This document shows positions 31,201 to 34,200 of a DNA stretch of 64,000 bases, piece after piece. This DNA is from Owenia fusiformis. Its lineage: Eukaryota. The stretch covers positions 27,218,001 to 27,282,000 of the forward strand of contig CAIIXF020000001.1 in the NCBI GenBank assembly GCA_903813345.2, written 5' to 3'. How positions within the stretch are numbered: position 1 is the stretch's first letter; each line of letters starts with the position of its first letter. The notes below the pieces were generated by a model that saw only the letters and a program-made list of their open reading frames with translations, was not told where the DNA came from and ran no database searches. Position numbers and translations under genes: made by a program.

Positions 31201-34200
31201 TACTTTCTAAGATAATTTTTCCATTTCCCCAAGTAAAAGTTTGAAAACAATAGTATAACTAAATATGTACACTTAGTCATACCATGCTATAAAATGTAGT
31301 TCTTTGCATTCAGATCATACTGCAAGACTTTGGTGCATAGAGTCCAGTTCATGCTTAGGGAGCTATATAGGTCACAAAGGGTCTGTTAACTCAATACGAT
31401 TCCACCCCACCCAAGACCTTGTACTGACAGCTTCTGGAGACCAGACTGCCCACATATGGCGGGCTCAAGTCAATGTACCACCACATGTAGAAAATCTGGT
31501 AAGTTAAATTATGATAGTTGTAATGTGTGTTCTCAAAATGAGCATTTAACCTCATTAATTCCAAGTATTCATGAAAAGTAACACCGTAGGGAAGAAAAAA
31601 TCAAAAATGACTTGAGTAAATAAGTTTACAATTTTACTTAACATAACTCTTTTATTGTAAACTTTAGTGCAACTTATGTTTAAGCAAACAATAGAGATAA
31701 ATCAGAATAAGGTTAATTAATATGGAAGACATTTATATCAGGGATATCAAATGCTTCGAATTATTGAAATGATGCTCTCTCATTTATAAATAAAAGGTGA
31801 ACTTGTAATTCAATCTCAAACTCATCCATTCATTCTCTCATAAATTAGAAATTCTCTTTTGTAAGTGAATGGTGGCCCTGAAAAGGGCCGTTGATTGTAG
31901 CATGGATGAGATGTATGTTAGCCTAGGCCCAGAGTACATCAACACCAAGATCTTCATCAACCCCGAGTGCAGCTTCATATTCTTCCATCTTCTCTGTAGC
32001 AATGGCTGTGTGCAGCTGTAGCATTACTAATGTACAGCTGATCTGGACCTGACAGCTGTGAGCAGATGTGGCATCATCCTTTGTGGTCAGATTGGACATG
32101 TAGCGCAGAAGATTATCTTGTAGTTTCTCATCCAAGAGTTTTGATTGGTTGATTGCAGCTATCATTGCACCTTTCAGCTTTTCTAGCTTACTAAAAGATG
32201 GCTGTACTGTCATCTTTTGGCTGGTAGAATTTGAAGTGCAATCTTGAACCATGATGTGTTTATAAGTGAATCTCTTAGATCTGTTGTTCTTGAAATCAGT
32301 CACAGAAGTGATGATACTTATTAGTGCTTGCTCAGTATTTATATCACTCCAGGTAATAATCTTCTTAATCCTTTCTCACCTGACTGGCATTTGAACAGGC
32401 ACTAAACTAGGGTTTAACTAATGACACTGTTAATCCGGCTGGAAGAAGCCAATTAGCATAGATTGAATTGAATTCTGTAAAGTGGCATGACTTTGAGAAG
32501 CTACTTATTGAAAGTGACACAAAAGCAGCCAAAGTGACATTTATCTAAATATGGATTAGTAAGTTAGTGAAAGAATAAATTTAGCACTCTAATGTTAACT
32601 TTTGATTTTTTCTTCCATTTAATCATTTTTTGATATACAACATTAGCAACTATATCCATACAGATAAAAACAAATTGGTTTCTTGTTAATCCAATTGTTG
32701 CAATAACAAGTGGATTAACATGTAATCAATGAGCAATTTGTATTCATCAAAATTTGATTAAAACTGAATGTCATATTTTTTATCAAATCAAACTCAAAAT
32801 CAGGATTTTAGGTAAATTCAAATTTTCCTGTATTTTCAGAGATCACATTCATCAGGGGAAGATGACCTAGATGGGTCTGAGAAAGAGGAATGTGAAGGTG
32901 AGAACACAAGCATTTTCTGCAAGTGTACACTTGCATTTTCTTGCTCCTTCCACCCTCTAAGCTGGAACCAGAGGGGTTAATTTAGACTTTAGATATTCAA
33001 AAAGTGAGCTTACATCAAAAATGGTCACCTCACTTTTTAAAAACAGCCTTACCTGGGCCTTTTACAAAAAATGGGTTTGAATTTTCAAAAAAGGAAAATT
33101 TTGAGACATCTGAAACCCCTTTTGGCCTCTTGTTGATTTTTAGTAGCCCTGTCAGAATGTTGTACCCAAATTCTTTTTTATTATTATTACTGAATATTTG
33201 TCAAAGTATTAACTGTTAATTCTATTTCTTGAGGCAAGTAACACTGGCGTACCGTCATATACGCATAAAACACCATGGCGTACGCAAAATTTAGAAAAAA
33301 GTAAATTTTTTATATTGAAAGGCATTTTTACATTTCATTAGTCCATATTAGTCAGGTTTTCCTATTTCAAAACGCCCCAGAATAGTTCAAATGCGTTCAC
33401 TCACAAAATACCCATACGCCACTGAATAATTTCTAACTGGGTGCAGTGCTGTAGAGTAAATCTTGCTTGACATAGTGTGAAAATTTCATAATCAAATAAA
33501 GCCTGTTAAGTCCCCCCGGGTAAGTCCCATTTTCACTTGATGTTCTTTCCTACAGCTGACAGAGAACAGCTACATGAACCCAACATTCTTAGGACCCCAT
33601 TACTAGAACTAACTGGACACCAGGGAGTTATCAACGCAGCTGATTGGATGGCAGGGGGCAATCAGGTGATAACTGCATCATGGGACAGGGCAGCACACCT
33701 CTATGATGCTGACTCGGGGGAAATAGTCAATACTCTTACAGGTGAGTAGCTTATTGTCTTATTTGCATATTCAGAAAGTGTTTATTTAATTTTTATCTAA
33801 TAGACAAGATATTGATATACAAAATGCTATATTTCGTTTGGCCTCCTAGAATGAGATTCAGATTCTTTTTCTCATCCAAACATACATGTATATTATGCAT
33901 GGAAACAATAAAGATCAAATCACAGGTGTCTAGAAAATCCAAGATCAAATTAAATAAGAGTGATAACAAGGGATTGATGCAACATTGTCCTTTAACTTGA
34001 AAAAATTGCTTAAAATAGAACTTAAGAATAAATATCTCATTGAAAATAGGTCAACATGACCTTTATTCATCAAATCAATTAAATTTTAATTTTTAAACAA
34101 TAATGTTTTGTCACTTTAGAAACTTCAATTCAGCTGAAACTAAATCTGATACAAAATCAATATTGGCTTTCTCTGATCAATTTTAAGGTTTGATTGACAG

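What the first reader, a model, noticed from the sequence alone, without database searches (positions are those of the whole stretch)
31850..32460. Non-histone gene ending in a canonical histone stem-loop and HDE, nested antisense inside a WDR37 intron
Seen directly on the minus strand, in order: octamer-like/CCAAT motif, TATAAATA (32343), initiator ~30 nt later, ~60-nt leader, ATG in good context (32252), intronless 109-codon ORF, TAG, 33-nt 3' UTR, AAC-GGCCCTTTTCAGGGCC-ACCA, then AAAAGAGAAT ~10 nt further. Established knowledge: this stem-loop (SLBP site) plus purine-rich HDE (U7 snRNP site) is the 3'-end signal of metazoan replication-dependent histone mRNAs and is regarded as essentially histone-specific. 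Yet I see no histone fold, H1 globular domain or Lys/Arg-rich tail in this ORF or in its other frames. Inference: a non-histone, non-polyadenylated mRNA that has co-opted the SLBP/U7 pathway, which could give S-phase-coupled or maternal/cleavage-stage expression. It may belong to a dispersed gene family or to a selfish element.
Basis: partly seen in the sequence, partly recalled or inferred. Interest (0 to 1): 0.92.

Follow-up and report, generated by a model that had tools for sequence, protein, structure and literature searches.

The report
Histone-style gene encoding a non-histone protein
Inside an intron of an annelid WDR37 gene sits a small gene built like a histone gene, with a canonical histone mRNA end signal, but it codes for an unrelated orphan protein, and no transcript from it has been seen yet.

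Summary
Rfam's Histone3 model gives one hit in the 64-kb window, at 31849-31894(-): 38.4 bits against a cut-off of 34. It lies 33 nt after the stop codon of an intronless 109-codon ORF (32252-31923, minus strand). A TATA box, a short leader without an upstream ATG and a good start context come before the ORF. A purine-rich downstream element comes after it.

The ORF is not a histone. No histone family matched in any of six frames, and the model has no histone fold. No relative turned up in about 1.8 billion representatives or the other searches.

The ORF looks like coding sequence:
- Its length is improbable by chance.
- Its codon usage resembles the host gene's and beats 101 of 101 intronic null ORFs.
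- Two other haplotypes vary 3-4 times less in the gene unit than in the flanking intron, and codons 17-96 and the 3' signal are unchanged.

The host is WDR37 of Owenia fusiformis, and the unit lies whole in a 1341-nt intron.

Against it, two stranded RNA runs gave zero reads over it, and no contig ends at the stem-loop. I read it as probably a real non-histone gene with a histone-type 3' end. Expression and processing remain unshown.

The parts
32449..32459 (-). Octamer-like ATGCTAAT overlapping an inverted CCAAT (ATTGG), about 110 nt upstream of the TATA box. Putative upstream promoter element.
   Evidence: Read directly. Short motifs, not tested for function.
32336..32343 (-). TATA box, TATAAATA.
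   Evidence: Read directly.
32305..32313 (-). Putative initiator and transcription start (TCATCACTTC region; A at 32312 or 32309).
   Evidence: Inferred from the distance to the TATA box (31-34 nt) and the YYANWYY pattern. No read supports it.
32253..32312 (-). Putative 5' leader of about 57-60 nt, without an ATG.
   Evidence: Its extent is inferred.
31923..32252 (-). Intronless ORF of 109 codons plus TAG (protein P0001). It is acidic (15 D/E against 9 K/R) and predicted helical.
   Evidence: Searches give the ORF. Length statistics are and codon usage. No family or relative was found. The AF2 model has pLDDT 65 with helices 20-36, 42-54, 61-85 and 89-96. Codons 17-96 are unchanged in two other haplotypes.
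31890..31922 (-). 33-nt spacer between the stop codon and the stem.
   Evidence: Unchanged in the X1 and X4 contigs.
31870..31894 (-). Histone-type stem-loop with flanks: UCAAC, then a 6-bp stem GGCCCU/AGGGCC with loop UUUC (31889-31874), then ACCA. Predicted cleavage is after 31870.
   Evidence: RF00032 at 38.4 bits against a gathering score of 34. It appears in the minimum-energy fold. The motif is unique in the window. The cleavage site is inferred from what is known of histone pre-mRNA processing.
31851..31860 (-). Purine-rich histone-downstream-element-like AAAAGAGAAT, starting 10 nt after the predicted cleavage site.
   Evidence: and it lies inside the Rfam match. Pairing to the species' U7 snRNA was not testable.
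31499..32839 (+). Host intron (GT..AG, 1341 nt) of WDR37 that contains the whole unit.
   Evidence: The spliced joint was seen in 6 reads (X18), 16 reads (X19) and one contig (X1). Exon identity to WDR37 is and the exon map.
31590..31606 (.). Left arm of a 17-nt perfect inverted repeat that brackets the unit.
   Evidence: These are the only two matches in the window. 1 of 3000 simulations gave such a repeat. No target-site duplication was seen.
32600..32616 (.). Right arm of the same inverted repeat.

Best explanation
This is a small, intronless, TATA-driven protein-coding gene on the minus strand. It lies whole inside a 1341-nt intron of the Owenia-type WDR37 gene. It has the architecture of a replication-dependent histone gene but encodes a 109-residue acidic, helical protein with no detectable relatives.

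Inferred mechanism: RNA polymerase II starts near 32310. SLBP binds the stem-loop at 31889-31874. U7 snRNP pairs with the purine-rich element at 31860-31851, and the transcript is cut after ACCA (31870). The product would be a non-polyadenylated mRNA of about 440 nt, with stability and translation tied to SLBP. That implies expression coupled to S phase, or stored maternally, in step with histones.

Shown here: the signals, the open and coding-like frame, the absence of histone character, the nesting, and reduced polymorphism. Inferred: transcription, cleavage site, SLBP/U7 dependence and timing. The protein's job is unknown. My guess, untested, is a small acidic partner of chromatin or histones made alongside them.
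For: (1) RF00032 is the only above-threshold Rfam hit in the window: 38.4 bits against 34, E 1e-07, full model. It has a 6-bp stem, loop UUUC, GG/CC at the base and an ACCA flank.
(2) The stop codon is 33 nt upstream. The frame is 150 codons from stop to stop, against an expected 0.24 per 64 kb, and 0 of 5000 composition-matched simulations were open.
(3) Codon-position composition nearly copies the host coding sequence: G at position 1 is .32 against .34, and T at position 1 is .15 against .15. The codon-usage score is +0.15 bit per codon and exceeds 101 of 101 stop-free intronic stretches, whose maximum is 0.002.
(4) TATA box, initiator-like site, a leader free of ATG, and A at -3 with G at +4.
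(5) Two other haplotypes differ at 6 of 502 (X4) and 4 of 502 (X1) positions in the unit. In the flanking intron they differ at 20 of 565 and 18 of 578 (Fisher p 0.016 and 0.008). There are no indels in the unit. Codons 17-96 and the stretch 31849-31922 are identical. The three amino-acid changes (T6I, S9P, E100R) fall in the low-confidence termini.
(6) The contigs run unbroken across the unit's borders, which argues against a high-copy repeat.
Against: - No read of either strand fell on 31544-32580 in two stranded RNA runs. About 6 in 100 of each run was read, and the host exons stood at depth 10-25.
- The contigs that cover the unit (X1 at depth 11.5 against 869 for the host exons; X4 at depth 25) are collinear with the genome, cross exon-intron borders and do not end at the stem-loop. 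They can be pre-mRNA or DNA.
- No relative of the protein was found in any search. The exact sequence is absent from the 15-billion-protein collection, which does hold this species' WDR37, so the gene is unannotated there.
- Three of five changed codons alter the residue.
- The nucleotide just 5' of the stem is C where the consensus has A.
- The species' U7 snRNA and SLBP could not be examined.
Confidence: 0.5

Rival explanations
1. The unit is an inert relic. A histone-gene-derived promoter and 3' flank (an 'orphon'-like fragment), or a dead young gene, has an upstream frame that is still open but is no longer, or never was, expressed.
For: - Zero RNA reads in two runs, and no contig ends at the stem-loop.
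- No homologue anywhere.
- The sequence is not in the annotated protein set.
- Three of five codon changes are non-synonymous.
Against: - A 150-codon open frame in 33-43% GC DNA is very unlikely to persist without selection.
- Codon usage is above 101 of 101 intronic null ORFs.
- The unit has 3-4 times fewer differences than the flanking intron, with an invariant core and 3' signal.
- No trace of histone coding sequence in six frames.
Confidence: 0.25
2. The unit is the cargo of a mobile or formerly mobile element of about 1027 bp (31590-32616), bounded by 17-nt perfect inverted repeats. That element would have carried a histone-type expression cassette into the intron. This reading does not exclude the gene being functional.
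For: - A perfect 17-nt inverted repeat brackets the unit.
- Such a repeat arose in 1 of 3000 Markov simulations and in 2 of 81 real tiles of the window.
- The motif occurs only at these two places in the window, against 0.15 expected.
Against: - No target-site duplication next to the arms, and no extension of the repeat beyond 17 nt.
- No transposase.
- No second copy in the window.
- The X1 and X4 contigs run through the arm positions without a break, unlike a high-copy family.
- The arms are A/T-rich and of low complexity.
Confidence: 0.12
3. The gene is real and expressed, but its 3' end is made wholly or mainly by ordinary cleavage and polyadenylation further downstream. The stem-loop would be vestigial or used only in some cells, as in histone genes that carry both signals.
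For: - The X1 contig continues about 110 nt past the stem-loop, to 31759.
- A/T-rich AATAAT- and ATTAAA-like strings lie downstream.
Against: - No canonical AATAAA within about 150 nt downstream.
- If the mRNA were polyadenylated, ordinary RNA-seq should have caught it, yet two runs gave zero reads.
- The stem-loop and downstream element are unchanged in three haplotypes, while the next 350 nt are the most variable part of the intron.
Confidence: 0.08
4. It is a chance juxtaposition, or a very diverged histone or histone-fold gene.
For: The size and layout equal those of a core histone gene. The predicted helices 42-54, 61-85 and 89-96 loosely recall a short-long-short helix pattern.
Against: - No histone-family Pfam hit at E up to 10 in six frames.
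- Foldseek against the PDB gave 0 of 149 listed matches at E 0.001 or better. The best was E 1.4, and none of the rows printed is a histone.
- The protein is acidic, not basic.
- The joint chance probability of stem-loop and ORF is very small.
Confidence: 0.05

Closest known systems
Metazoan replication-dependent histone genes (canonical H2A, H2B, H3, H4, H1) and their SLBP/U7 snRNP 3'-end processing
   Same: Intronless, TATA-driven and of about 0.45 kb, with a short leader. The stem-loop lies about 30 nt after the stop codon with an ACCA flank, and a purine-rich downstream element follows about 10 nt after the cleavage site.
   Different: The product is not a histone: no histone family in six frames, no histone fold, and net acidic. 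It does not sit in a histone cluster, since there is no second RF00032 hit in 64 kb. It is nested antisense in an intron. Passages read in PMC5054213 and PMC2781718, and the abstract of PMC3763545 seen in a search listing, state that only histone mRNAs are known to be processed or bound this way.
Solitary histone genes ('orphons') and histone pseudogenes dispersed away from the clusters (label recalled, not from a call)
   Same: A single histone-type cassette far from any cluster.
   Different: Those still show histone coding sequence. Here none is detectable in any frame, and the frame present is long, coding-like and conserved among haplotypes.
Histone variant genes with both a stem-loop and poly(A) signals, such as H2AX (recalled)
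   Same: The stem-loop is used outside the core canonical set, and alternative 3' ends are possible.
   Different: Those genes still encode histones. No canonical AATAAA lies nearby here.
Nested genes lying antisense within introns of host genes (general phenomenon)
   Same: A complete transcription unit inside a host intron on the opposite strand.
   Different: Known nested genes use ordinary polyadenylation. This one carries a histone-type end signal.

Membership tests
Histone mRNA 3' stem-loop (Rfam RF00032 Histone3) | Covariance-model score at or above the curated gathering score | tested here: met
   38.4 bits against 34, E 1e-07, model positions 1-46 of 46.
Histone mRNA 3' stem-loop (Rfam RF00032 Histone3) | 6-bp stem with two G-C pairs at the base, a U-A closing pair and a 4-nt loop with U at positions 1 and 3. 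These SLBP determinants are recalled from the literature. | tested here: met
   GGCCCU-UUUC-AGGGCC.
Histone mRNA 3' stem-loop (Rfam RF00032 Histone3) | A-rich 5' flank and ACC(C)A 3' flank | tested here: inconclusive
   The 3' flank ACCA is present. The 5' flank is UCAAC, with C where the consensus has A next to the stem.
Histone mRNA 3' stem-loop (Rfam RF00032 Histone3) | Lies a few tens of nucleotides after a stop codon on the coding strand | tested here: met
   33 nt after TAG.
U7-dependent processing signal | Purine-rich downstream element about 10-15 nt after the cleavage site | tested here: met
   AAAAGAGAAT starts 10 nt after ACCA.
U7-dependent processing signal | Base-pairing of that element with the 5' end of the species' own U7 snRNA | not testable with these tools
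   No genome is held, and there is no U7 hit in the window.
U7-dependent processing signal | Mature RNA ends just after the stem-loop without a poly(A) tail | tested here: inconclusive
   Zero reads in X18 and X19. The X1 and X4 contigs do not end there. The poly(A) status of the libraries is unknown.
Replication-dependent histone gene | Encodes a histone fold or a linker-histone globular domain | tested here: not met
   No histone Pfam family at E up to 10 in six frames. Foldseek's best match had E 1.4, and none of the rows printed is a histone. No PDB sequence hit.
Replication-dependent histone gene | Sits in a histone gene cluster | tested here: not met
   Only one RF00032 match in 64 kb. 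The neighbours are WDR37 exons and a retroelement.
WDR37 (host gene) | Exons identical to a protein named WDR37 | tested here: met
   A 61-aa exon is 100% identical over 100% of its length to the 476-aa WDR37 of Owenia fusiformis. 470 of 476 codons were recovered at 22289-36941(+).
Cut-and-paste DNA transposon or MITE | Terminal inverted repeats flanked by a target-site duplication, with multiple copies | tested here: inconclusive
   A 17-nt perfect inverted repeat is present. No duplication was seen. There is no other copy in the window. The genome was not searchable.

The most novel reading that the evidence does not exclude
Owenia makes a non-histone protein from an mRNA that ends in the histone stem-loop and is cut by SLBP/U7. 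That would be the first animal non-histone client of this pathway. It would also hint at a hidden class of small, non-polyadenylated, intron-nested genes that poly(A)-based transcriptomes and annotation pipelines miss.
Probability: 0.4. Interest if true: 0.85.

Novelty: new variant of a known kind. Interest (0 to 1): 0.65.

Why it matters
The papers I read treat the stem-loop/U7 pathway as exclusive to histone mRNAs. PMC5054213 says they appear to be the only mRNAs processed this way (passage). PMC2781718 says there is no evidence that SLBP binds non-histone RNAs (passage). A non-histone gene with intact, haplotype-invariant signals would show that the pathway can be co-opted. It would give a natural reporter for S-phase or maternal mRNA control in a spiralian. 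It would also warn that poly(A)-selected data hide such genes. The claim can be tested with one 3' RACE and one total-RNA library.

Tried and rejected
Searches that found nothing for the protein:
- The whole genome of the window is not held. So I ran no genome-wide RF00032, U7 or tblastn search.
- Relatives of P0001: near lengths, 24 candidates and none at E 1 or better. Longer lengths, 871 candidates and none. 1,835,955,588 representatives, 0 at E 0.001 or better. Exact look-up, absent.
- PDB sequences, 0 hits. Metagenome contigs, 383 pattern matches and 0 confirmed. Viral contigs, 8 pattern matches and 0 confirmed.
- PHROGs gave 0 families. NCBIfam gave two hits far below their cut-offs. Pfam gave only Transpeptidase at 15.1 bits, below its cut-off of 22.1.
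- ESM Atlas: the sequence is held letter for letter. The best feature score was 0.88 to unnamed clusters, and the structural neighbours were generic helical proteins. I treat these as leads only.
- A second Atlas call, on a neighbouring 339-aa ORF, gave nothing usable.

Rejected leads:
- A tblastn hit at 55439-55534 (E 0.014) contains a stop codon, so I rejected it as chance.
- A decayed histone gene is rejected, because no histone family matched in six frames.

Expression:
- No RNA holder was listed for the stretch.
- The two raw RNA runs I laid had no reads on it, and the contigs were uninformative about transcript ends.

Earlier scan notes: nothing for this place, this sequence or these words bears on the finding.

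Literature:
- Searches for a non-histone mRNA with a histone stem-loop found none: 5 papers; 2; 0; 2. Searches were searches for papers on the pathway's evolution and on Owenia histones.
- The 2026 preprint on the evolution of the processing machinery has no occurrence of 'non-histone'.
- The Owenia histone paper PMC12153100 has no occurrence of 'stem-loop', 'SLBP' or 'polyadenyl'.
- The soniCLIP preprint mentions non-histone windows only in a supplementary figure legend.
- The paper by Lopez and Samuelsson (2008) is not held.
- Supplements were closed and may list stem-loop hits that I could not see.
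Full report
WHAT IS THERE. On the minus strand of the window, in order:
- Octamer-like ATGCTAAT overlapping an inverted CCAAT: 32459-32449.
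- TATAAATA: 32343-32336.
- An initiator-like TCACTTC 31-34 nt further on.
- A leader of 57-60 nt without an ATG.
- An ATG at 32252 with A at -3 and G at +4.
- An uninterrupted frame of 109 codons ending in TAG at 31925-31923.
- A 33-nt spacer.
- The hairpin GGCCCU-UUUC-AGGGCC at 31889-31874, then ACCA to 31870.
- After nine more bases, AAAAGAGAAT at 31860-31851.

IS IT MORE THAN CHANCE. Rfam's Histone3 model (RF00032) is the only family that reaches its gathering score anywhere in the 64 kb. It scores 38.4 bits against 34, with E 1e-07 for both strands and all 4227 families, and matches the whole model. The permissive scan added only sub-threshold microRNA and snoRNA look-alikes. A degenerate stem-loop motif matched once, against none in 100 of 100 shuffles. 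The hairpin is the one formed in the minimum-energy fold of the 3' region.

The frame is 150 codons from stop to stop. First-order Markov copies of the window hold 0.24 such frames per 64 kb. None of 5000 simulated copies with the ORF region's own composition stayed open. By my arithmetic, the chance that such a frame ends within about 60 nt of a given point on a given strand is of the order of 1e-4.

IS THE FRAME CODING. The ORF is 43% G+C in a 33% intron. Its base use by codon position is:
- Position 1: A .32, C .22, G .32, T .15.
- Position 2: G .11.
- Position 3: A .29, C .19, G .23, T .29.

That is almost the same as the host gene's 470 recovered codons. There, position 1 is A .31, C .20, G .34, T .15, and position 3 is A .32, C .18, G .21, T .30.

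I scored the ORF with a codon model trained on those host codons against intron trinucleotides. It gets +0.15 bit per codon. That is above all 101 stop-free stretches of 40 or more codons in the host introns (mean -0.375, maximum 0.002). It is also above three other long, presumably exonic ORFs of the window (0.064, 0.024, -0.118) and the retroelement ORF (-0.325). The training set is small, so this is supporting evidence and not decisive.

IT IS NOT A HISTONE, AND NOTHING ELSE KNOWN.
- Pfam finds no histone family at E up to 10 in any of the six frames of 31880-32419 read through stops, nor in the protein itself.
- A single-sequence AlphaFold2 model (mean pLDDT 65) is a small helical bundle with helices 20-36, 42-54, 61-85 and 89-96 and floppy ends.
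- Foldseek against the PDB gave 149 matches at E 10 or better, 0 at E 0.001 or better and a best E of 1.4. None of the rows printed is a histone.
- The protein is acidic, with 15 D/E against 9 K/R by my count.
- No relative appeared in the 5.8-billion-cluster search at near or longer lengths, among 1.84 billion representatives read by HMMER, in PDB sequences, or in metagenome or viral contigs.
- PHROGs and NCBIfam gave nothing usable.
- The ESM Atlas holds the exact sequence but offers only unnamed or generic helical neighbours at scores below 0.9.

This emptiness is weak evidence of orphan status, for two reasons. The host exon's best non-self WDR37 hits are only 79% identical or less, so no close relative's proteome is in the collection. 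And a small unannotated ORF would not be in protein sets anyway.

CONTEXT. The 61-residue exon at 31316-31498(+) is 100% identical to a 476-residue protein that NCBI and UniRef name WDR37 of Owenia fusiformis. That protein's exons map to 22289-36941 on the plus strand. Stranded RNA reads splice 31497/8 to 32839/40 (GT..AG) in 6 reads (X18), 16 reads (X19) and one contig (X1). The unit therefore lies whole, and antisense, in a 1341-nt intron. There is no second stem-loop and no paralogue in the window. The one weak tblastn hit contains a stop codon.

WITHIN-SPECIES CONSTRAINT. The contigs of two runs give two further haplotypes of the locus. I counted substitutions plus indel events.
- In the unit (31849-32350): 6 of 502 (X4) and 4 of 502 (X1).
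- In the flanking intron: 20 of 565 and 18 of 578.
- Fisher p is 0.016 and 0.008.
- All indels lie outside the unit.

The 74 nt from the downstream element to the stop codon are identical in all three haplotypes, and so are codons 17-96. The next 350 nt downstream are the most variable part of the intron. Inside the ORF the changes are T6I, S9P, V16 (silent), G97 (silent) and E100R. The amino-acid changes fall in the two segments with pLDDT below 50.

There are three caveats. The two haplotypes share some variants, so they are not independent. The tool withheld one difference per listing. A/T-rich flanks may mutate faster.

EXPRESSION: THE WEAK POINT. In the two raw, stranded RNA runs there was no read of either strand on 31544-32580. 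About 6 in 100 of each run was read, roughly 12.7 and 11.5 million records, and the host exons stood at depth 10-25.

Run X1 is RNA, because it has a spliced contig at depth 869. Its only contig over the unit has depth 11.5, runs from 31759 into the next host exon unspliced, and passes the stem-loop by about 110 nt. That is what host pre-mRNA or DNA would give. The X4 contig (depth 25) is likewise collinear with the genome, from before the upstream exon to 32564.

So nothing shows a discrete minus-strand RNA, and nothing shows a 3' end at 31870. The selection method of the libraries is not on record. A non-polyadenylated or stage-restricted mRNA would be missed. I therefore count this as moderate evidence against, not as refutation.

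A POSSIBLE MOBILE ORIGIN. A 17-nt perfect inverted repeat (31590-31606 and 32600-32616) brackets the unit.
- Such a repeat arose in 1 of 3000 simulations and in 2 of 81 tiles of the real window.
- The motif occurs nowhere else in the window.
- There is no target-site duplication, and the match does not extend beyond 17 nt.
- Contigs of both runs pass through the arms without breaking, unlike a high-copy repeat.

I keep this as a minor, non-exclusive rival.

HOW IT MOST LIKELY WORKS. From established knowledge of histone pre-mRNA processing, SLBP sits on the stem-loop, U7 snRNP pairs with the downstream element, and cleavage falls a few bases after the stem. The abstracts of PMC1635294 and PMC3763545, seen in the listing, and the passage in PMC5054213 describe this. 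By that model, this cassette should yield a poly(A)-less mRNA of about 440 nt whose abundance follows SLBP: in S phase, or as a maternal store. This is inference. Only the signals, the frame and their conservation are shown. I give the functional-gene reading 0.5, an inert relic 0.25, mobile-element cargo 0.12, a real gene that does not use the stem-loop 0.08, and chance or a cryptic histone 0.05.

COMPARISON WITH WHAT IS KNOWN. In architecture it matches a replication-dependent histone gene, and it passes the RNA-signal tests for RF00032. It fails the defining test for a histone gene, because its product is not a histone, and it is not in a histone cluster. The papers I read state that histone mRNAs appear to be the only mRNAs processed this way (PMC5054213, passage). 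They also state that genome-wide studies give no evidence that SLBP binds non-histone RNAs (PMC2781718, passage). My searches found no report of a non-histone stem-loop mRNA. The Owenia histone-complement paper does not mention stem-loops at all. Subscription papers and supplements were not searchable.

VERDICT. This is a new variant of a known kind: a histone-type expression cassette around a non-histone, coding-like, haplotype-conserved ORF. It awaits a transcript. Interest 0.65.

Noticed in passing
window 31590-31606 and 32600-32616: A 17-nt perfect inverted repeat brackets the whole histone-style unit, giving an interval of about 1027 bp. It is rare in simulations (1 of 3000), but there is no target-site duplication.
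   Followed up: partly
window 31499-31848: The intron stretch just downstream of the unit is hypervariable between haplotypes. The X4 contig shows 15 substitutions, a 5-nt deletion and an 11-nt insertion there, in sharp contrast to the invariant stem-loop next to it.
   Followed up: partly
window 28300-30093 (-): A 597-codon open frame with a reverse-transcriptase domain (PF00078, E 7.4e-39). It is a retroelement lying in another WDR37 intron, antisense to the host.
   Followed up: partly
window 50970-51603: A tandem array of at least 16 copies of a 27-nt unit. It creates long repetitive open frames on both strands at 51062-51774.
   Followed up: no
window 45894-46844 and 49762-50747: Long inverted repeats, with arms up to 477 nt at 86% identity, bracket about 4.8 kb. 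They look like the ends of a large transposable element.
   Followed up: no
window 48012-48207 and 30479-30963: A perfect 98-nt tandem duplication, and a unit of about 255 nt that is duplicated at 90-100% identity.
   Followed up: no
window 11591-11693 (-): A sub-threshold match to a plant microRNA family (MIR5200): 41.9 bits against a gathering score of 70. It is probably just a hairpin.
   Followed up: no
window 9194-10480 (-), 15695-17110 (-), 43426-44445 (+), 61405-63999 (+): Large open frames without any Pfam family. They are presumably exons of neighbouring genes: Q/P/H-rich and S/P-rich on the minus strand, and a large helical protein on the plus strand.
   Followed up: partly
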